A stretch of DNA of 24,000 nt from Pyrinomonadaceae bacterium (GTDB taxonomy: Bacteria; Acidobacteriota; Blastocatellia; Pyrinomonadales; Pyrinomonadaceae), in the NCBI GenBank assembly GCA_041394795.1, contig JAWKHN010000007.1, positions 184,254 to 208,253 of the forward strand. Reading direction: 5' to 3'. Made by a program: the position numbers and the translations under genes. Positions 7,539 through 17,468 of the stretch are shown in pieces (position 1 is the stretch's first letter; each line of letters opens with the position of its first letter). The notes under the pieces are model-generated. The model had not been told where the DNA came from. It was given only the letters and a program-made list of their open reading frames with translations, and ran no database searches.

Positions 7539-10244
7539 ATGAGCAATTTAAAAAGAGTTTTTTTGATCGACAGCATGTCGCACATTTTCAGGGCGTTTTT
7601 CGCTCCCATGGGGATGCGTCAGGAGCCGTTAAGAAATAGCAGCGGGCAGATTACCCAAGCCGTCTTTGTGTTTACAAACATGCTTCGAAAGTTGATCGCG
7701 GATGAAAACCCGGATTATGTCGCCGCCATTTTCGACACTCCGGAGCCGACCTTCAGACACGAGGCATTTGAGGATTACAAAGCCAACCGCGAGGAAATGC
7801 CGGAGGATCTCGCGACTCAGCTTCCCTATATCGAGAGGGTTTGCGAAGCGCTCAACATACCGATTCTGCGGATGCCCGGTTATGAAGCCGATGACATCAT
7901 CGGAACGCTCGCCAAACAATGCGAGAAAGAGAAACTTCAAGCGGTTATCGTTTCGAACGACAAGGATCTCTGCCAACTCGTCAAGGATCCGTACGTGATC
8001 TGCATGCGGCAAAATTCGCAGAACATTCGTCGCAAAACGCCGGTACCGCCGGTCGAATGGTGCGACGAGGCGTGGGTTTTAAAGAAGTTCGAGCTCCCTC
8101 CCGACAAAATAATCGACTATCTCGGCTTGATGGGAGACTCGATCGACAACATCCCGGGAGCACCCGGAATTGGCGCCAAGGGCGCCCTCAAAATCATTCA
8201 GGAATTCGGCTCCGCCGAGGAAGCGATGGCCAACGCCGAAAAGGTAAAGCACAAAACCTATCGGGAAAGCCTTCTCAACAATCAGGACATCATCCGGCAG
8301 TCGGTCGAATTGGCGACGATCCACACTCAGGTGCCGGTTGAACTCGATCTTGATCTGCTCAAGCTCGAAGAACCCAACCGGCAAAAGGCCTACGAGCTTT
8401 TCCGCGAGCTTGAGTTCAACACGCTGACGCGCGAATTCGCGGATGCGGCGCCGCTTTTTGACAGCAGCGACGAAGTTTCGGGTTCGACAGGCAGGACGTA
8501 CAACATCATCAAAACCCGTCCTGATTTGGACAAACTGGTTCGGCGCCTTTTTGAAGTCGATAAATGGAGCTTTCACTGCGATCTTGATGGCGAGGCGTTT
8601 TCGGGCTCATACACGACGCCTGAGCCGGTCGGATTGGCGATAAGCTTTGCGCCCGGGGTTTCAACATACATCGATCTGAAGAATTTCGAAGGCGGCAAAG
8701 AGGAGGCTCTTGGCCCGTTGGGCGACATTCTTGCAAACGGATTTCTTGAGAAAACGACATACGACTATAAATGCTCGCTGGCGTCGCTTTCGCGTTTGGG
8801 AATTCATCCCGAAGCGGTTGCCGACGATCTATTGATCGCCGCATATCTCATCGATTCCGGACGTCGAAATTATGAGCTTCGAACTCTTGCCCAACAGTTT
8901 CTCGAACAGGAAATCTCCCCCGAAATTCCGAACGGTTGGAGCGAATCACAATATCGAACGGCGGAGAACGCAGATTTTTCGTTTCAACTGACACCGATCC
9001 TTCGAGGGCAAATCGAAACCGACGATCTTTCCCGAGTTTACGATGAAATCGAAATGCCGTTGATTCCGATCCTATGTGATATGGAAATGCTCGGAATGAA
9101 GGTCGATAAAAGCGTTTTGAAGGAAACCTCCGAGTTTTTGAGCGTAAAGCTCGCGGCGCTGTCGAAATCGATTTTCGAACTCGCTGGACAGGAATTCAAC
9201 ATCAATTCCCCAAAGCAGGTTGGGGAAGTGCTTCAGGATCTGAATATCGAAACGAAGTACAAAACTCCGACCGGCAAAATATCGACCAGCAAGGACGCGC
9301 TGTTTGAGATCGGCCAAACATATCCGATCGCGAATGAAATCGTTGAATACCGCGAACTAGACAAACTGAAATCAACCTACGCGGATTCGCTGCCGCAATT
9401 GATTCGCGAAGACGGCCGTATCCACGGCACTCTGAATCAAACGGTTGCTGCAACGGGGCGACTGAGTTCGACCGATCCCAATCTGCAGAACATCCCGATA
9501 AGAACCGAAATCGGCAAGCAGATTCGAAAGGCGTTTATTGCCGATGAAGGAAAAATCCTGGTTTCGGCCGACTATTCGCAGTTGGAGTTGCGGATCATCG
9601 CCCACATTACGGGCGACGAAGTGATGCGCGAGGCTTTCAAAAACAACGAGGACATCCACTCCAAAACCGCTCAATTGGTATTTGGCGCGACTTCAGAGGA
9701 GGAGCTCAAGGAAAAACGCCGGTTGGCGAAGATCGTGAATTTTGGAATCGCCTATGCCGTCGAGGCGTTTGGGCTTTCGCAAAGAGTCGGTATTTCGAGG
9801 ACGGAAGCAAAGGAAGTGATCGCCGAGTATTTTCGTACCTACAAGGGAATCAAGAAATATATGGACGAAACCCCTGAAGTCGCACGCGAACAGGGCTATG
9901 TTTCGACGCTTTACGGACGACGGAGATATCTGCCTTCGATCACCGAAAGAAACTTCGCTCTTCGTGCGAGGGCCGAACGCGAAGCGATCAACATGCCGAT
10001 TCAGGGAACGGCGAGCGATATCGTAAAGATCGCGATGCTGCGTGTCGATAAGGCGCTGAAAAAGGAGAAACTCGAGGCGCGGATGTTGATGCAGGTCCAT
10101 GACGAATTGCTTATCGAGGCGCCGATTGAAGAGCTGGAGAAGGTTCGCGATTTGCTCGTCAGGGAAATGGAAGCGGCGGCGACGCTTGAAGTTCCCTTGA
10201 TCGCAGAAACGGGTTCGGGGCAAAACTGGATGGAATTGAAATAG
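7539..10244 (+). CDS. polA: DNA polymerase I (901 aa): 5'-3' exonuclease, 3'-5' exo-like domain and family A polymerase domain.
   Basis: I place the start at ATG 7539 (MSNLKRVFLIDSMSHIFRAFFA, the typical PolI 5'-nuclease N-terminus). The 80 upstream codons in the ORF track are non-homologous. Polymerase motifs are present: A (VSADYSQLELRIIAH), B (RRLAKIVNFGIAYAVEAFGLS) and C (LMQVHDELLIEAP). Confidence 0.93.
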   Translation: MSNLKRVFLIDSMSHIFRAFFAPMGMRQEPLRNSSGQITQAVFVFTNMLRKLIADENPDYVAAIFDTPEPTFRHEAFEDYKANREEMPEDLATQLPYIERVCEALNIPILRMPGYEADDIIGTLAKQCEKEKLQAVIVSNDKDLCQLVKDPYVICMRQNSQNIRRKTPVPPVEWCDEAWVLKKFELPPDKIIDYLGLMGDSIDNIPGAPGIGAKGALKIIQEFGSAEEAMANAEKVKHKTYRESLLNNQDIIRQSVELATIHTQVPVELDLDLLKLEEPNRQKAYELFRELEFNTLTREFADAAPLFDSSDEVSGSTGRTYNIIKTRPDLDKLVRRLFEVDKWSFHCDLDGEAFSGSYTTPEPVGLAISFAPGVSTYIDLKNFEGGKEEALGPLGDILANGFLEKTTYDYKCSLASLSRLGIHPEAVADDLLIAAYLIDSGRRNYELRTLAQQFLEQEISPEIPNGWSESQYRTAENADFSFQLTPILRGQIETDDLSRVYDEIEMPLIPILCDMEMLGMKVDKSVLKETSEFLSVKLAALSKSIFELAGQEFNINSPKQVGEVLQDLNIETKYKTPTGKISTSKDALFEIGQTYPIANEIVEYRELDKLKSTYADSLPQLIREDGRIHGTLNQTVAATGRLSSTDPNLQNIPIRTEIGKQIRKAFIADEGKILVSADYSQLELRIIAHITGDEVMREAFKNNEDIHSKTAQLVFGATSEEELKEKRRLAKIVNFGIAYAVEAFGLSQRVGISRTEAKEVIAEYFRTYKGIKKYMDETPEVAREQGYVSTLYGRRRYLPSITERNFALRARAEREAINMPIQGTASDIVKIAMLRVDKALKKEKLEARMLMQVHDELLIEAPIEELEKVRDLLVREMEAAATLEVPLIAETGSGQNWMELK

Positions 10245-13954: not shown

Positions 13955-15805
13955 TTATTCCTGTTCCTCTGTGATCCCGGCGGCCTGCCTTTGCCGCTCA
14001 AAATGTCCGGCGATCTCGATCGCGGTCGTCGCGCCGACGATCGGTTTTAGGTCGTTTACGCTTGCCTTTGCGATTCTCTCGATCGAGCCAAACGTCTTGA
14101 GAAGCCTTCTTCGCCGAGTCGGTCCGACGCCGGGTATGAGTTCAAGCTCGGATGAAAAGTCGCGCATCTCTCGCCGTTTCCTATGATATTGAATCGCGAC
14201 CCGGTGCGTCTCGTCGCGAATTTCCTGAATCAGGCGAAACATCGGCGAGGTTGGGTCAAACTCAACCGGCTCTTCCTCTCGGCCGTAAACGATTAGGTGG
14301 GAAATCTCGCTGTGCCTTTTTGGCGGTTTTACAAGCCCGACCAACGGGATCGCGGCGAGTTCCAGGTCGCGCATCGCCGCCGCGGCGGCCGAAAGCTGTC
14401 CCTTTCCGCCATCGATAAAGATCAGGTTTGGCAATGCCTTGTTTTCTTCGAGCTTTCTTCTGTATCTTCTGAAAACCGCTTCGTTCATCGAACCGAAATC
14501 ATCCTGACCCTCGATCGTCTTGATTTTATAGCGCCGGTATTCGCTGCGGTTTGGTTTTCCGTTTTCGAACGCGACTATTCCGGCGACGTTTTCAGATCCC
14601 TGAATGTTTGAGATGTCGAAAGACTCTATTAACTTTGGAAGGTGCGGCAACTCGAGTGTTTCCTGCATGTCCTGCAAGAGCTTTTCTGTTTTTGGCTTTA
14701 AGACGCGGAACCTCTGTTCGTATGCCACCCGCGCGTTCATCTCGACGAGTTCGATCATTCGCTTTTTCTCGCCTTTTTGCGGCACCAAAATCTTCACCAC
14801 ACGACCCCGTCTTTCGGTAAGCGCCTTCTCAAGAGTTTTCCGATCGCCGAAATCCAGCGGCACACTGATCTCAAGAGGCACATAATCGGTCGAGTAGTAT
14901 TGCGACAACACCTCGCCGAGAAAATCCGCGACTTCGAAATCCTCTTCTTCGAGGTCTTCCCAAAAGAACTCGCGCCTTCCGATAACTTTGCCCTCGCGCA
15001 TCGTGAAGAGCTGAAGCGCGAGACTGTTTCCCTTTTTGTAAAAGCCAAAGATATCGACATCCCTCTCCGGCGATGTCGCCATCTTTTGGTTGGCCTCGAG
15101 TGCCAGGACAGTTTTGGAAAGATCCCTGTATTTCGCCGCGATCTCAAAATTCTCAATCTCGGCAAAATGCCACATCCTCGCCTCAAGCTCGGCCGCGAGT
15201 TCCTGATTCTTGCCATCCATCAAAAGAATCGCATCGCTTACCGCCTCTTTGTATTCGGCAGGACTGCACAGGCTTCTTACGCACGGACCGAGGCATCGTT
15301 TGAGATGGTATTCAAGACACGGCCGCTGCATCTTGCCGTCGAGTTCGAGCGTGCATGTCCGTAGCTGAAATGTACGATTGATCAGATTGAGAGTCCGTCT
15401 CGCGAGATTCGCCGGCAAAAAGGGTCCGTAGTATTTGGCGCCGTCTTTGAGGAGTTTTCTTGTGATCACAACCTTTGGATACTCTTCTTTTGTGATCTTC
15501 AAATGCGGATATTGCTTGTCGTCCTTTAGAAAGACGTTGTATCGCGGCTTGTGTTTCTTGACGAGGTTGGCCTCGAGTACGAGCGCCTCGACCTCGTTGT
15601 CAACAACGATGAATTCAAAGTCAGCGATACGCTCCATCAAACGACGCGTTTTGTAATCCTTGTGTTTCGTCGATTGGAAATACTGCCTGACCCTGTTGCG
15701 GAGGTTCTTCGCCTTGCCGATATAGATGATCCTGCCCTTCTCATTCTTGTGTATGTAAACACCGGGTTTCGCTGGAAGGTTCTTGAGTTTTTCGGCGAGT
15801 TCCAT
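13955..15805 (-). CDS. uvrC: Excinuclease ABC subunit C (616 aa).
   Basis: An N-terminal GIY-YIG domain is present (KPGVYIHKNEKGRIIYIGKAKNLRNRVRQYF). A UVR-domain region and an RNase H-like endonuclease region follow. The C-terminus carries (HhH)2: LELIPGVGPTRRRRLLKTFGSIERIAKASVNDL. Confidence 0.93.
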   Translation of the reverse strand: MELAEKLKNLPAKPGVYIHKNEKGRIIYIGKAKNLRNRVRQYFQSTKHKDYKTRRLMERIADFEFIVVDNEVEALVLEANLVKKHKPRYNVFLKDDKQYPHLKITKEEYPKVVITRKLLKDGAKYYGPFLPANLARRTLNLINRTFQLRTCTLELDGKMQRPCLEYHLKRCLGPCVRSLCSPAEYKEAVSDAILLMDGKNQELAAELEARMWHFAEIENFEIAAKYRDLSKTVLALEANQKMATSPERDVDIFGFYKKGNSLALQLFTMREGKVIGRREFFWEDLEEEDFEVADFLGEVLSQYYSTDYVPLEISVPLDFGDRKTLEKALTERRGRVVKILVPQKGEKKRMIELVEMNARVAYEQRFRVLKPKTEKLLQDMQETLELPHLPKLIESFDISNIQGSENVAGIVAFENGKPNRSEYRRYKIKTIEGQDDFGSMNEAVFRRYRRKLEENKALPNLIFIDGGKGQLSAAAAAMRDLELAAIPLVGLVKPPKRHSEISHLIVYGREEEPVEFDPTSPMFRLIQEIRDETHRVAIQYHRKRREMRDFSSELELIPGVGPTRRRRLLKTFGSIERIAKASVNDLKPIVGATTAIEIAGHFERQRQAAGITEEQE

Positions 15806-15851
15806 GGTTTCAATCTTACATTAACGGGATGGGATGTGTACGTCCGGAAGA

Positions 15852-15879
15852 GTTCCAAGTTCCATGTTCCAAGTTCCAG
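15852..15879. repeat. Tandem heptad array, 4 x GTTCCAN (GTTCCAA GTTCCAT GTTCCAA GTTCCAG).
   Basis: I read this directly from the sequence. It lies 47-74 nt upstream of the uvrC ATG and abuts copy 1 of the 171-bp repeat. GTTCCAAG recurs just after copy 1 (~16057), ATTCCAT just after copy 2, and GTTCCAA upstream of the Rad50-like gene (~17549). Confidence 0.9.
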
Positions 15880-16047
15880 AGTTGAGTCGACTTTAAGGGG
15901 TCGATCTTCTTCCAAAATCCGGAAATTCCTATTCGGACGCGTAGCGTCACGTAGATTTTAGCCGTGGATGGAGCGGCTTTGCGCGGAATCCACGGTAAAC
16001 GCAAAAACAACGTTCGCGCCGGGTACCGGCGCGGAGAAACGCCCGTA
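15877..16047. repeat. Copy 1 of a ~171-bp non-coding direct repeat.
   Basis: The stretch cagagttgagtc...ggcgcggagaaacgcccgta aligns without gaps to 16212-16382, with 11 mismatches in 171 nt (~94% identity). It contains conserved hairpins: gacgc-gta-gcgtc, ccgtggat...atccacgg, and cgcgccgg-gta-ccggcgcg. Confidence 0.9.
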
Positions 16048-16190
16048 TTTGCTGCGTTCCAAGCGCCAATGATTTGCAGGGATACTGTTTGCGGCTCGCA
16101 CCCGGGGGTTGCTACCCCTGGCTATTATCCCCTTGACGGCCGCGCGACAGAAGTGGAAATTCCGAACATTTTTACAACTTATTCCTTTGA

Positions 16191-16240
16191 ATCGACTTTT
16201 TGGAGTGCCCTCAGAGTTGAGTCCACTCTAAAAAGTCGAT
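16191..16240. repeat. Long inverted repeat or stem-loop: 17-bp stem including one G-T/G-U pair, with a 16-nt loop.
   Basis: The left arm atcgactttttggagtg (16191-16207) pairs with cactctaaaaagtcgat (16224-16240). The loop is ccctcagagttgagtc. The loop and right arm are the first 29 nt of repeat copy 2. The left arm is unique sequence that resembles gtcgactttaaggggtc in copy 1. Confidence 0.8.
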
Positions 16241-16382
16241 CTTCTTCCAAAATCCGGAAATTACTATTCGGACGCGTAGCGTCACGTAGATTTTAGCCGT
16301 GGTTGAAGCGGCTTTGCGCGGAATCCACTGTAAACATAAAAACAACGTTCGCGCCGGGTACCGGCGCGGAGAAACGCCCGTA
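16212..16382. repeat. Copy 2 of the ~171-bp non-coding direct repeat, offset 335 bp from copy 1.
   Basis: Evidence is as for copy 1. Weaker similarity (~60%) continues for ~30 nt past both copies: gcgttccaagcgccaatga-tttgcagg versus gcattccatcgcccatggtacttgctag. Confidence 0.9.
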
Positions 16383-16535
16383 ATTCTGGCATTCCATCGC
16401 CCATGGTACTTGCTAGCGGAGCTAACTCGCTCATTGAATTTTTGGTTTTCCAGCGTCTCCGGAGGATTTGCTTCATGAATCGTTTCCGGCATCGGCTTCC
16501 AGGTTGTAAAATTCGTTTTTGCTTTTGAGGATTTT

Positions 16536-17468
16536 ATGAAGACGATCATCACCGAATCGGTTCGCGAGGCCGCCGGAATACTGCGGCGTGGCGGGATCGT
16601 CGCGTTTCCGACCGAGACCGTGTACGGACTCGGAGCGCCGATTTTCAACCCCTCTTCGATTTCGCGAATCTTCGAAGCAAAGTCGCGCCCCGCCGACAAT
16701 CCTCTGATCGCGCACATCTCGGATCTGTCGCAGATCGAGGATCTCACAGAATTCCTGCCCGATTATGGAAAACGGATCATTGACGCGTTTTATCCGGGTC
16801 CTCTTACGATCGTCGTTCGAAAGAAACCGACGGTTCCCGATATCGCCACCGCGGGGCTCGATTCCGTGGGGATTCGAATGCCCGATCAAACTCTTGCCCG
16901 AGAACTAATCGAAGCCGCCGGTACGCCCTTGGTGGCGCCATCGGCAAACGTATCGGGAAAACCCTCGCCAACCACCTGGCAGGCGGTCCTCGAAGATTTG
17001 GACGGGCGAATCGATTGCATCTTAAAGGGCGAAACGACGAGGTACGGTCTCGAATCAACGGTCGTGGATTGTACCGGCGGGGCGCCCTCGATCCTGCGCC
17101 GAGGAGCGGTAACGTTTGAAGAACTGAAAACCGTGGTTCCGGAGATCACCGACGTCGCGGATAACGACCCCGACAAACCCAAAAGCCCCGGTCTCAAGCA
17201 TCGGCATTATTCCCCTTCGGCCGCAGTCGCCTTCTACACGCCGAATGCCGAAAAAAGCGAGTCTGCCTATATAGGCATCGCGGTTCCTTCATGCGAATTT
17301 AGGAAAGCAAAAATAGTAAACGATGCGGGGGAATACGCCCGCGTTCTTTATGAGTTTTTCCGTGAATGCGACCGTGATAAAATCGACAAAATTTACTGCG
17401 AGGAAATCCCTGAAACCGGAATCGGAGCAGCCGTGATGGATCGAATCCGGCGAGCGATCGCAAGATAG
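16536..17468 (+). CDS. tsaC: L-threonylcarbamoyladenylate synthase (Sua5/YwlC/TsaC family, long form with C-terminal Sua5 domain), 310 aa.
   Basis: Family motifs are present: GGIVAFPTETVYGLGA, EAKSRPADNPLIAHI, PGPLTIVV, VGIRMPD, APSANVSGKPSPT and STVVDCTG. The SD is tGAGGAttttATG. Confidence 0.9.
   Translation: MKTIITESVREAAGILRRGGIVAFPTETVYGLGAPIFNPSSISRIFEAKSRPADNPLIAHISDLSQIEDLTEFLPDYGKRIIDAFYPGPLTIVVRKKPTVPDIATAGLDSVGIRMPDQTLARELIEAAGTPLVAPSANVSGKPSPTTWQAVLEDLDGRIDCILKGETTRYGLESTVVDCTGGAPSILRRGAVTFEELKTVVPEITDVADNDPDKPKSPGLKHRHYSPSAAVAFYTPNAEKSESAYIGIAVPSCEFRKAKIVNDAGEYARVLYEFFRECDRDKIDKIYCEEIPETGIGAAVMDRIRRAIAR

What the first reader, a model, noticed from the sequence alone, without database searches (positions are those of the whole stretch)
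15877..16382. Two ~171-bp, ~94%-identical non-coding direct repeats 335 bp apart in the uvrC-tsaC divergent spacer
15877-16047 and 16212-16382 align without gaps, with 11 mismatches. Weaker similarity continues for ~30 nt beyond both copies. All six reading frames across the repeats are short or overlapping, with no SD, so the repeats appear non-coding.

Each copy keeps three hairpins: gacgc-gta-gcgtc, an 8-bp ccgtggat/atccacgg stem that is degraded in copy 2, and a GC-rich cgcgccgg-gta-ccggcgcg stem. On the minus strand the GC-rich stem is followed by AACGUUGUUUUU.

The 164-bp segment between the copies is unique. It has its own ccggggg-ttgcta-cccctgg hairpin and a TTGACG-N17-GAAATT promoter-like element (16133-16161) pointing into copy 2.

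Possible explanations are a pair of paralogous sRNA genes, a dispersed MITE/REP-like element lacking terminal inverted repeats, or a duplicated regulatory module shared by the divergent uvrC and tsaC promoters. I cannot match it to any RNA family from memory.
Basis: seen in the sequence. Interest (0 to 1): 0.65.

Follow-up and report, generated by a model that had tools for sequence, protein, structure and literature searches.

The report
Hybrid MITE carrying REP-like hairpin unit
The two repeats are neighbouring copies of a small gene-less mobile DNA element found at about 130 places in this genome, built from a hairpin unit common in related bacteria capped with the ends of a widespread transposon, so they are selfish DNA and probably not a pair of RNA genes.

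Summary
In detail: 15877-16061 and 16212-16396 align without gaps at 91%.

The repeats are not a local oddity. They belong to a dispersed family ("family A") with 134 loci in the 4.34-Mb genome: 29 full, 42 left arm plus centre, 63 fragments.

The full element is a 342-bp foldback. It has 23-bp terminal inverted repeats (TGAGTCCACTCTAAAAAGTCGAT) and 4-5-bp target-site duplications, and it inserts into AGTTCCA heptad repeats.

In the window, element 1 is complete (15883-16213, duplication GAGT). It inserted directly next to element 2 (16218-16404), which has no right end. The "unique" inter-copy segment is element 1's degenerate right arm.

The same 21-nt end brackets a 2.2-kb IS1182-like transposon in distant phyla. 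That transposon also makes 4-bp duplications inside heptad runs. No such transposase is present in this assembly.

The interior (hairpins H1-H2-H3) matches multi-copy units in congeners that lack this end and flank IS200/RAYT-like Y1 transposase genes.

Best reading: a MITE that captured a REP-like unit. There is no Rfam match and no orientation bias.

Earlier scan notes on other Blastocatellia genomes describe the Y1-linked units and heptamer palindromes. The IS1182-type ends are new here.

The parts
13955..15805 (-). uvrC (616 aa), left neighbour
   Evidence: NCBIfam TIGR00194 uvrC, 605 bits
15842..15882 (.). One unit of the ~43-bp AGTTCCA-heptad repeat (GTCCGGAAGAGTTCCAAGTTCCATGTTCCAAGTTCCAGAGT). 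This is the insertion target. Its last 4 nt (GAGT, 15879-15882) are the left target-site duplication of element 1.
   Evidence: 310 BLAST matches of 15806-15880 in the genome. 43-bp tandem array at C2:223829-224079. AGTTCCA occurs 1736 times against about 530 expected. TSD shown.
15883..16213 (+). Element 1: complete family-A MITE (331 bp), made of left TIR, left arm (H1, H2), centre (H3), degenerate inverted right arm and right TIR.
   Evidence: nhmmer match to HMM positions 1-342 at C7:200136-200466. Flanked by GAGT on both sides.
15883..15905 (+). Left terminal inverted repeat of element 1 (TGAGTCGACTTTAAGGGGTCGAT, a diverged copy of the consensus TGAGTCCACTCTAAAAAGTCGAT)
   Evidence: Alignments. 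238 occurrences of the terminus in the genome at <=4 mismatches.
15936..15948 (+). Hairpin H1 of element 1 (GACGC-GTA-GCGTC)
   Evidence: Compensatory variants among copies (pair CG 44 / GC 22; GC 61 / AT 4) and between species
15962..15995 (+). Hairpin H2 of element 1 (TAG + CCGTGGAT - 18-nt near-invariant loop GGAGCGGCTTTGCGCGGA - ATCCACGG). This is the REP-like core.
   Evidence: Pair 87-108 is GC in 41 copies and AT in 26; the loop is nearly invariant. Conserved in congeners.
16015..16033 (+). Hairpin H3 of element 1 (CGCGCCGG-GTA-CCGGCGCG). On the minus strand it is followed by a T-run and looks like a terminator.
   Evidence: The counterpart in G005 and G006 units is GCGCCGC-GTCA-GCGGCGC / GTCGC-GTCA-GCGAC.
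16085..16190 (-). Degenerate right arm of element 1, an inverted copy of the left arm.
   Evidence: Global alignment of the reverse-complemented right arm to the left arm, 80 of 130 identical. Family consensus is a foldback.
16191..16213 (-). Right terminal inverted repeat of element 1 (ATCGACTTTTTGGAGTGCCCTCA)
   Evidence: Inverted repeat I1. Terminus list (C7:200444-200466).
16214..16217 (.). Right target-site duplication GAGT of element 1. It directly abuts element 2.
   Evidence: C7 200136-200466, TSD 4, GAGT
16218..16404 (+). Element 2: one-ended family-A copy (left TIR 16218-16240, H1 16271-16283, H2 16297-16330, H3 16350-16368). It matches HMM positions 1-189 and has no right arm, no right TIR and no TSD.
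   Evidence: nhmmer C7:200471-200657, HMM 1-189. No right terminus within 900 bp.
16405..16535 (.). Unique native DNA upstream of tsaC
   Evidence: 16397-16535 has no second match in the genome
16536..17468 (+). tsaC/Sua5-type L-threonylcarbamoyladenylate synthase (310 aa), right neighbour
   Evidence: NCBIfam TIGR00057, 210 bits

Best explanation
The two repeats are adjacent insertions of a non-autonomous transposon (a MITE, 'family A').

Anatomy. The full element is a 342-bp foldback. It has 23-bp terminal inverted repeats. Two inverted arms of about 120 bp each carry hairpins H1 and H2. A centre of about 100 bp carries the GC-rich hairpin H3.

Mobilisation. The element is moved in trans by a DDE transposase of an IS1182-like clade that recognises the conserved end TGAGTCCACTCTAAAAAGTCG. 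This transposase cuts and pastes into GAAG(T)/GAGT sites inside heptad microsatellites and leaves a 4-5-bp duplication. The ends, the duplications and the target habit are shown; that this transposase moves the element is inferred.

Origin of the cargo. The H1-H2-H3 unit is not transposon-derived. It is homologous to REP-like units that, in the same genus, lie next to heptad repeats and flank small Y1 (IS200/RAYT-like) transposase genes. Family A is therefore a chimera of a REP-like unit and IS-type ends.

History at this locus (inferred). A one-ended copy (element 2) occupied the uvrC-tsaC spacer, where relatives also carry a native unit. A complete element (element 1) then inserted at the GAGT immediately to its left. 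This produced the 335-bp-spaced direct repeat and widened the spacer to 730 bp.

Function. The elements are most likely selfish DNA. Any effect on uvrC or tsaC expression would be a by-product.
For: Dispersed family:
- 51 BLAST matches and 134 non-overlapping nhmmer loci.

TIRs and TSDs:
- TIR pairs are listed.
- TSDs occur in unrelated contexts: GGAC, GTTC, GGAGC, GAGCC, GTCC, GGATT, GGTC, ACGCC, ATTC, plus a recurrent GAAGT.
- Element 1 in the window is flanked by GAGT on both sides.
- The flanks of many copies rebuild the uninterrupted unit GTTCCAGAAGTTCCAAG, which occurs 157 times in the genome and serves as a paralogous empty site.

Link of the end to a transposase:
- The exact 21-mer end occurs in 21 stretches from distant phyla, and the sequence diverges right after it.
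- In a Saprospiraceae MAG it bounds a 2201-bp IS with a 655-aa DUF772 / IS1182-like transposase and 4-bp TSDs (TTTC, GAAG) inside heptad runs.
- Diverged transposases of the clade (33-37% identity) are bracketed by related ends.

Interior is a Y1-linked unit:
- Covariance model R1 (H1+H2) finds multi-copy homologs in G006, G003, G012, G007 and G325, which lack the terminus.
- These units flank a Y1 gene in inverted orientation in G005 and lie beside Y1 genes in G006, G012 and G007.
- This genome's own Y1 gene at C6:184556-185008 is followed by two H1-H2-like units.
- In G006 the unit abuts species-specific heptads and has no TIR.

Locus history:
- The closest relative (L147) has one diverged unit, same orientation, no TIR, in the same spacer.
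- The spacer is only 97-157 bp in G006 and G011.

Selfish rather than functional:
- No orientation bias (++ 17 vs -- 16), and copies are enriched in convergent spacers.
- No Rfam family matches.
Against: - No homolog of the cognate transposase was found in this assembly. The assembly is 91% complete in 31 contigs. The partner is therefore inferred from other phyla.
- About 31 copies, including window element 2, have only the left end and no TSD. Only about 3-4 mirror-image copies exist. Simple cut-and-paste plus random decay does not explain this asymmetry.
- Ten of 17 full copies show no exact TSD. Many of these have inverted heptad flanks instead.
- Stems diverge half as much as non-stem positions, and compensatory pairs separate subfamilies. 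The hairpins are therefore under some constraint that 'pure junk' would not predict.
- Expression was not testable.
Confidence: 0.8

Rival explanations
1. The elements are REP/REPIN-type (or IS200-derived PATE-type) repeats. They would be moved as single-stranded DNA by one of the genome's Y1 transposases, and the 'TIR' would be just part of the unit.
For: - The H1-H2-H3 unit flanks Y1 genes in congeners in the inverted arrangement and follows this genome's own Y1 gene.
- H2 is preceded by (G)TAG, as in GTAG-tagged REPs.
- The full element is a doublet of inverted units, like a REPIN.
- The roughly 31 one-ended copies have a constant left flank (RRAGT), a fairly defined right end (...GCGGCCACY) and no TSD, as Y1 transposition would give.
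Against: - Complete elements, and sibling families with other interiors (family B, 419 bp), have 4-5-bp TSDs, which Y1 enzymes do not make.
- The 21-nt end is the end of a DDE transposon in other phyla.
- Congeners with the unit lack that end.
- The Y1 proteins fail the curated RAYT model: 22 bits against a cutoff of 80.
Confidence: 0.12
2. Each unit is a small-RNA gene or a cis-regulatory RNA or terminator module that the host keeps, and the two window copies are paralogous functional genes.
For: - Hairpins are conserved with compensatory changes within the genome and between species.
- The H2 loop is nearly invariant.
- H3 plus a T-run looks like an intrinsic terminator on the minus strand.
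- A unit sits in the same uvrC-tsaC spacer in several relatives.
Against: - No Rfam hit, Acido-type motifs included, even at E<=10.
- No consensus promoter.
- No strand bias relative to flanking genes, and copies occur in all spacer types.
- Many copies are truncated, nested or interrupted by other elements.
- G006 and G011 lack the unit at this locus.
- The compensatory changes mark a few subfamily-founding events. Constraint on hairpin recognition by a transposase explains them equally well.
Confidence: 0.06
3. The repeat is a recent local tandem duplication of spacer DNA with no mobility.
For: The two copies lie in direct orientation 335 bp apart and are 91% identical.
Against: - More than 130 related loci lie on 20 or more contigs, and several are closer to copy 1 than copy 2 is: C10:4016 is 93% identical against 91%.
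- Element 1 has its own TIRs and TSD.
- Copy 2 lacks the right half.
Confidence: 0.01

Closest known systems
Bacterial MITEs derived from DDE insertion sequences (e.g. Correia/NEMIS elements of Neisseria, MITEAba12, Nezha of cyanobacteria)
   Same: Small (about 340 bp) and non-coding. Terminal inverted repeats identical to those of an autonomous IS. Short target-site duplications. Tens to hundreds of mostly intergenic copies. Foldback potential. Several sibling families share one terminus.
   Different: The interior is not a deletion remnant of the parent IS. It is a REP-like three-hairpin unit native to the host lineage. No autonomous partner is present in the assembly. Insertion is aimed at heptad microsatellites. 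Many copies are one-ended.
IS1182 family insertion sequences (ISfinder; e.g. IS1272 of staphylococci, PMC5678879)
   Same: The transposase that accompanies the terminus has the DUF772 N-domain plus a DDE_Tnp_1-type core, and its best NCBIfam hit is IS1182. The family is described as heterogeneous and structure- or repeat-seeking in its targets.
   Different: The score is far below the curated cutoff (68 against 270 bits). The proteins are longer (540-655 aa). This clade makes 4-5-bp TSDs in heptad runs, whereas IS1272 replaces stem-loops without a TSD (PMC5678879). The terminus sequence was not found anywhere in the searchable literature.
REP / BIME / REPIN sequences with their RAYT (Y1) transposases (Nunvar 2010 PMC2817692; Bertels & Rainey 2011 PMC3116915; GTAG-tagged REPs PMC3733652)
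   Same: GC-rich imperfect palindromes with a 5' (G)TAG tag. Units flank a small Y1 transposase gene in inverted orientation. Sequences are homogeneous within a genome and diverge between species. The doublet (REPIN-like) organisation matches, as does the intergenic, high-copy distribution.
   Different: The unit is larger and composite (three hairpins, about 150 nt). The Y1 proteins pass the IS200 model and not the RAYT model, and there are 3-21 of them per genome. In this genome the units are capped by DDE-type TIRs and show TSDs.
Modular intergenic repeats such as pneumococcal BOX elements or enterobacterial ERIC/IRU
   Same: Modular build, strong hairpins and an intergenic location. They are often mistaken for sRNA genes.
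   Different: Those have no demonstrated TIR/TSD pair tied to an identifiable transposase clade and no Y1-linked unit. There is no sequence similarity.

Membership tests
MITE (non-autonomous DDE transposon) | Terminal inverted repeats | tested here: met
   23-bp TIR TGAGTCCACTCTAAAAAGTCGAT / ATCGACTTTTTAGAGTGGACTCA. 76 +/- pairs in the genome. Window 15883-15905 and 16191-16213.
MITE (non-autonomous DDE transposon) | Target-site duplication flanking complete copies | tested here: met
   4-5-bp TSDs in diverse contexts. GAGT around window element 1. However, 10 of 17 full family-A copies lack an exact TSD.
MITE (non-autonomous DDE transposon) | Small, no coding capacity, multi-copy | tested here: met
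   342-bp consensus. Only short overlapping ORFs. 134 loci, 25 kb in all.
MITE (non-autonomous DDE transposon) | An autonomous IS with the same ends exists | tested here: met
   2201-bp IS with the identical 21-nt end and a 655-aa transposase in a Saprospiraceae MAG. Related ends occur around diverged homologs.
MITE (non-autonomous DDE transposon) | Cognate transposase present in the same genome | tested here: not met
   No match to the 655-aa transposase at E<=0.01 in the 91%-complete assembly. The rve and DDE_Tnp_1 genes present have other ends.
IS1182 family (for the partner transposase) | Passes the curated IS1182 transposase model (NF033551) | tested here: not met
   68 bits against a cutoff of 270. 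Pfam gives only DUF772; homologs add DDE_Tnp_1, and distant ones DDE_Tnp_1_6. Hence 'IS1182-like', not a member.
REP/REPIN-RAYT system | Units flank a Y1 transposase gene in inverted orientation | tested here: met
   G005:C88 Y1 gene at 8191-8535 has units at 7802-8051 (+) and 8649-9290 (-). Partial in this genome: units lie only downstream of C6:184556-185008.
REP/REPIN-RAYT system | The Y1 protein is a RAYT (NF047646) | tested here: not met
   22 and 21 bits against a cutoff of 80. The IS200 model scores 82 and 81 bits against a cutoff of 55.
REP/REPIN-RAYT system | GTAG/CGTC-tagged GC-rich palindrome | tested here: met
   (G/C/T)TAG immediately 5' of the H2 stem, and GTAG in the H1 loop/stem, conserved across species
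REP/REPIN-RAYT system | Insertion without target-site duplication | tested here: not met
   Complete copies have 4-5-bp TSDs. Only the one-ended copies lack them.
Any Rfam RNA family (incl. Acido-1, Acido-Lenti-1) | Covariance-model match | tested here: not met
   No relevant hit even at E<=10 on 15700-16600. Only a tRNA elsewhere in the window at gathering threshold.
sRNA gene | Own promoter, terminator and a discrete transcript | not testable with these tools
   No consensus sigma-70 promoter, and a terminator-like H3 only on the minus strand.

The most novel reading that the evidence does not exclude
Two unrelated transposition systems share one piece of non-coding DNA. A REP-like three-hairpin unit is maintained vertically in this acidobacterial genus by IS200/RAYT-like Y1 transposases, always next to heptad microsatellites. 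In one species it was capped by the ends of a cross-phylum IS1182-like DDE transposon that homes to those same heptads, giving a burst of about 130 copies. The roughly 31 one-ended copies, including window element 2 at a locus where relatives carry a native unit, would arise by recombination or gene conversion between MITE arms and resident units. The DDE end would thus spread through the native repeat population without transposition.
Probability: 0.3. Interest if true: 0.6.

Novelty: new variant of a known kind. Interest (0 to 1): 0.42.

Why it matters
- For annotation: a hairpin-rich, perfectly duplicated spacer next to DNA-repair and tRNA-modification genes is selfish DNA, not an sRNA pair or a shared regulatory module. 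About 0.6% of this genome is the same element.
- For mobile-DNA biology: the work defines an apparently undescribed IS1182-like clade. Its 21-nt end is identical from Acidobacteriota to Bacteroidota and Patescibacteria, and it homes to heptad microsatellites with 4-5-bp duplications.
- It also shows a MITE whose cargo is a Y1-associated REP-like unit. If the two systems really interact, this is a tractable natural case of one transposon hijacking another's repeat population.

Tried and rejected
1. Parent IS at C2:218385-220510. A transposase gene sits between the two halves of a family-A copy. However, the 1.8-kb insert has its own inverted ends (AGGCYGTMTCAAAASTC) and a frameshifted transposase of about 560 aa, and it replaces the top of hairpin H3. 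It is an unrelated nested IS.
2. The only long TIR pair (C10:90956-93646, 2691 bp) encloses a host PlsC-like acyltransferase, not a transposase.
3. rve-type genes. A 1406-bp IS3-like element in 3 copies has ends TGTAGTGGTCTAATAAAACC..., unlike the MITE TIR. The other rve and DDE_Tnp_1 loci have no MITE terminus nearby.
4. Masked bases. The 5,028 N lie at a contig end after an rRNA-promoter-like region and are irrelevant.
5. Rfam scans found nothing.
6. Full-text search for the terminus sequence found 0 papers.
7. tblastn of the transposase against plasmids gave only weak haloarchaeal 'transposase' hits, which were uninformative.
8. A TSD search for one-ended copies, assuming an alternative right end at ...GCGGCCACY, found none.
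9. Clustering all TIR pairs into families by BLAST collapsed into one component, because subterminal sequence is shared. Size classes and HMMs were used instead.
Full report
OBSERVATION

The repeat is real. The repeat finder reports 15877-16061 and 16212-16396 as a 185-nt gap-free direct repeat at 91% identity, 335 bp apart. It also reports a 23-nt inverted repeat at 16191-16213 / 16218-16240. The flanking genes are uvrC (13955-15805, minus strand) and a Sua5/TsaC-type gene (16536-17468, plus strand). Only short, overlapping ORFs cross the repeats.

NOT A LOCAL DUPLICATION

The unit gives 51 BLAST matches in the window's own genome (4.34 Mb, 31 contigs, 91% complete), in both orientations. Several copies are closer to copy 1 than copy 2 is.

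A longer query showed that the supposedly unique inter-copy segment is repeated too, in 27-60 copies.

A two-round nhmmer census gives 134 non-overlapping loci, 25 kb in total:
- 29 full-length copies
- 42 copies with left arm plus centre only
- 63 fragments

ANATOMY

The family consensus is 342 nt and is a foldback:
- Positions 1-118 and 218-342 are inverted copies of each other.
- Each arm starts with the terminus TGAGTCCACTCTAAAAAGTCGAT and carries H1 (GACGC-GTA-GCGTC) and H2 (TAG + CCGTGGGT - 18 nt - ACCCACGG).
- The centre (119-217) holds H3 (CGCGCCGG-GTA-CCGGCGCG) and a weaker GCCAC/GTGGC hairpin.

Layout in the window:
- Element 1 spans 15883-16213.
- Its right arm is decayed, with 80 of 130 positions matching the left arm.
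- Element 2 spans 16218-16404. It matches HMM positions 1-189 only.
- The 139 bp that follow (16397-16535) have no other match in the genome.

EVIDENCE FOR TRANSPOSITION

The terminus occurs 238 times in the genome at <=4 mismatches and forms 76 +/- pairs. The size classes are about 343-348 bp, 417-422 bp (a sibling 'family B', about 36 very similar copies with a different interior) and about 440 bp.

Pairs in unrelated contexts carry 4-5-bp direct duplications: GGAC, GTTC, GGAGC, GAGCC, GTCC, GGATT, GGTC, ACGCC and ATTC.

Many insertions lie in a heptad repeat. The flanks ...AGTTCCAGAAGT | element | GAAGTTCCAAGT... rebuild the uninterrupted unit GTTCCAGAAGTTCCAAG, which occurs 157 times in the genome. 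These are paralogous empty sites with GAAGT as the duplication.

Window element 1 is flanked by GAGT (15879-15882 and 16214-16217), and its right duplication abuts element 2's terminus. So element 1 inserted beside a pre-existing element 2. This also explains two other features:

The full + one-ended tandem recurs at C15:14210/14564, C17:74417/74774, C3:25213/24971 and C4:98633/98988.

WHOSE ENDS ARE THESE?

No gene next to a terminus in this genome encodes a transposase. The candidates all failed:
- The C2 transposase is a separate IS nested in hairpin H3.
- The 2.7-kb terminus pair encloses a host acyltransferase.
- An IS3-like element has different ends.

The terminus is essentially private to this genome among relatives. 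It gives 178 matches here against 0-1 in each of 300 class-mates. At a looser setting it gives 230 matches here against 0-1 in each of 21 congeners.

In the species-representative collection, the exact 21-mer occurs in 21 stretches from distant phyla. These include Saprospiraceae, Chitinophagales, Bacteroides/Muribaculum, Victivallales, Paceibacterota and others. Many lie at contig ends, and similarity stops right after the terminus. By my arithmetic, about 0.3 exact matches would be expected by chance in 596 Gb.

In the Saprospiraceae MAG:
- The terminus bounds a 2201-bp IS present in at least 5 copies.
- Its 655-aa ORF has a DUF772 domain, and its best NCBIfam hit is IS1182, below the curated cutoff.
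- The other end is ...CCTTTTTAGGGCGGACTCA.
- Its 4-bp duplications (TTTC, GAAG) lie inside direct runs of heptad-like repeats.

Homologs at 27-37% identity are mostly unnamed 540-600-aa proteins with DUF772 and sometimes DDE_Tnp_1, on IS-sized contigs. Three that I fetched are bracketed by related ends (TGAGCCCACTCCGAAAA..., TGAGCGCACTCCGAAAAGTG...). One of them has a TAAT duplication in a TTCATAA run.

The terminus, the duplication length and the target type all tie the window's elements to this IS1182-like clade. No homolog of the transposase is present in this assembly.

WHERE THE INTERIOR COMES FROM

Among the 71 full and left+centre copies:
- Stems diverge half as much as other positions (8% against 17%).
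- The H2 loop is nearly invariant.
- A few stem pairs differ between subfamilies by double, compensating changes: H1 pair CG 44 / GC 22, H1 pair GC 61 / AT 4, and H2 pair GC 41 / AT 26.

These are few events inherited by many copies. They show constraint on the hairpins in the lineages that multiplied, not proof of an RNA function.

A covariance model of H1+H2 (R1) finds multi-copy homologs in G006 (at least 23), G003 (19), G012 (17), G007 (14) and another genus, G325 (7). All of these lack the terminus. H1 covaries between species, and the H2 stem with its (G)TAG tag is conserved.

Every genome of the genus has 3-21 small Y1_Tnp genes. The units lie beside some of them:
- In G005 one Y1 gene is flanked on both sides, in inverted orientation, by H1-H2-H3 units with H3 nearest the gene.
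- This genome's own Y1 gene at C6:184556-185008 is followed by two related H1-H2 units.

In G006 the unit directly abuts that species' own heptad repeats and has no TIR.

These Y1 proteins pass NCBI's IS200 model and fail its RAYT model. I therefore describe the unit as REP-like and Y1-associated, not as a RAYT system.

THE LOCUS IN RELATIVES

The uvrC-tsaC spacer is 97 bp in G006 and 157 bp in G011. It is 399-709 bp in four other congeners:
- G018 and G012 each carry a three-hairpin unit in the same orientation.
- G004 has two direct copies of a ~150-bp unit plus its own heptad repeats.

The closest metagenomic relative (92% UvrC N-terminal identity) has a 326-bp spacer with one diverged unit, same orientation, no terminus.

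A resident unit at this locus therefore probably predates the MITE ends. This fits the idea that one-ended copies such as element 2 are native units that acquired the left end by recombination with a neighbouring MITE arm. That step is inference.

FUNCTION

- Copies lie between genes; median overlap with crudely called genes is 0.
- They are over-represented in convergent spacers: 24 of 71 (34%) against 17% of all spacers.
- They show no orientation preference in tandem spacers: 17 against 16.
- There is no Rfam match, including at E<=10, and no consensus promoter.
- H3 plus a T-run is terminator-like on the minus strand, but the lack of strand bias argues against selection for that role.

UNEXPLAINED

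About 31 copies have only the left end and no duplication. Only about 3-4 mirror-image copies exist. Random loss of one palindrome arm would be symmetric.

About half of the full copies have inverted rather than direct heptad flanks. This may reflect insertion into heptad palindromes, as noted by earlier follow-ups on other Blastocatellia genomes.

COMPARISON AND VERDICT

In kind this is a bacterial MITE. It meets the TIR, TSD, size, copy-number and shared-ends-with-an-IS criteria. It fails only the test for a partner in the same genome.

It differs from ordinary MITEs in three ways:
- Its cargo is a host-lineage REP-like unit.
- It homes to heptad microsatellites.
- It has a large one-ended population.

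The partner clade is IS1182-like but not a curated member. It behaves differently from IS1272, which replaces stem-loops without duplications (PMC5678879). That behaviour is seen here only for the unrelated IS nested in H3 at C2.

The REP/REPIN-RAYT comparison holds for the unit's form and gene association. It does not hold for the enzyme class by the curated model, nor for the insertion signature of complete copies.

I rate this a new variant of a known kind, of moderate interest.

Noticed in passing
window 15842-15882; genome C2:223829-224079, C17:29430-29780: A second, very abundant repeat class: ~43-bp units GTCCGGAAGAGTTCCAAGTTCCAAGTTCCAGAAGTTCCAAG built from AGTTCCA heptads. They occur singly, in tandem arrays (period 43) and as inverted arrays. 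AGTTCCA occurs 1736 times against about 530 expected. Congeners have analogous but different heptads (AGTCAGR in G004; GGTTCAA/GGTCTGA in G006). The unit's start, TCCGGAAGAGTTCC, resembles the left end of the hairpin unit (ATCCGGAATTTCC).
   Followed up: partly
genome, e.g. C4:2235-2653, C4:56514-56932, C6:163648-164066: Family B: about 36 copies of a 417-422-bp MITE with the same 23-bp termini but a different interior. It holds four copies of a CCCCTGCCGGCTTGTCCGGCAGG-type hairpin, and most consensus positions are shared by at least 90% of copies, so it looks recently active. Classes of about 348 bp and about 440 bp also exist, as do A/B chimeras.
   Followed up: partly
genome C2:218571-220371: A 1.8-kb IS1182/IS5-like IS (ends AGGCCGTATCAAAACTC... 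/ ...GACTTTTGAGACAGCCT, frameshifted DUF772+DDE transposase of about 560 aa) sits inside a family-A copy exactly at hairpin H3. The 11 central nucleotides CCGGGTACCGG are missing and there is no clear TSD. This resembles the stem-loop-replacing transposition described for IS1272 (PMC5678879). A possible intact relative (557-aa ORF, same Pfam DDE region) lies at C24:~16743-17408.
   Followed up: partly
genome C14:4900, C2:301430, C16:70488, C12:51494, C6:45025, C18:36812: Another short element or IS end, GAGGYTGTCTCATAAG..., interrupts several family-A copies. Repeat elements nest in one another frequently in this genome.
   Followed up: no
genome C17:28011-28463 and 28464-28790: A second Y1 (IS200/RAYT-like) gene is followed by nine tandem 36-bp units, AAGTCCCCGCCGCTAGCGCGGCTACGCCGG (hairpin GCCGC-TAGC-GCGGC). 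This is a separate REP-like family. The Y1 gene at C6:184556-185008 is followed by 9-mer TTCCGTGGR repeats derived from the H2 stem.
   Followed up: partly
loci L085-L105 (genome contigs): The exact terminus also bounds tiny MITEs in other phyla: a 65-bp element in a Muribaculum MAG (two termini plus 19 nt, L092:3763-3827) and elements of about 100 bp in a Chitinophagales MAG (L088, L091, L103).
   Followed up: partly
congener loci L068 (G001) and L071 (G013): In two congeners the uvrC-tsaC spacer (895 and 1127 bp) holds an extra ORF on the opposite strand that looks like a response-regulator receiver domain. I judged this by eye and did not test it.
   Followed up: no
genome C11:84281, C20:30902, C3:264389: Three near-identical copies of an IS3-like element (shared length 1231-1406 bp, 369-aa rve ORF; ends TGTAGTGGTCTAATAAAACCGGACAC / TGACATGGTCAAGTAATTCCGGACAC). 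It is unrelated to the finding.
   Followed up: partly
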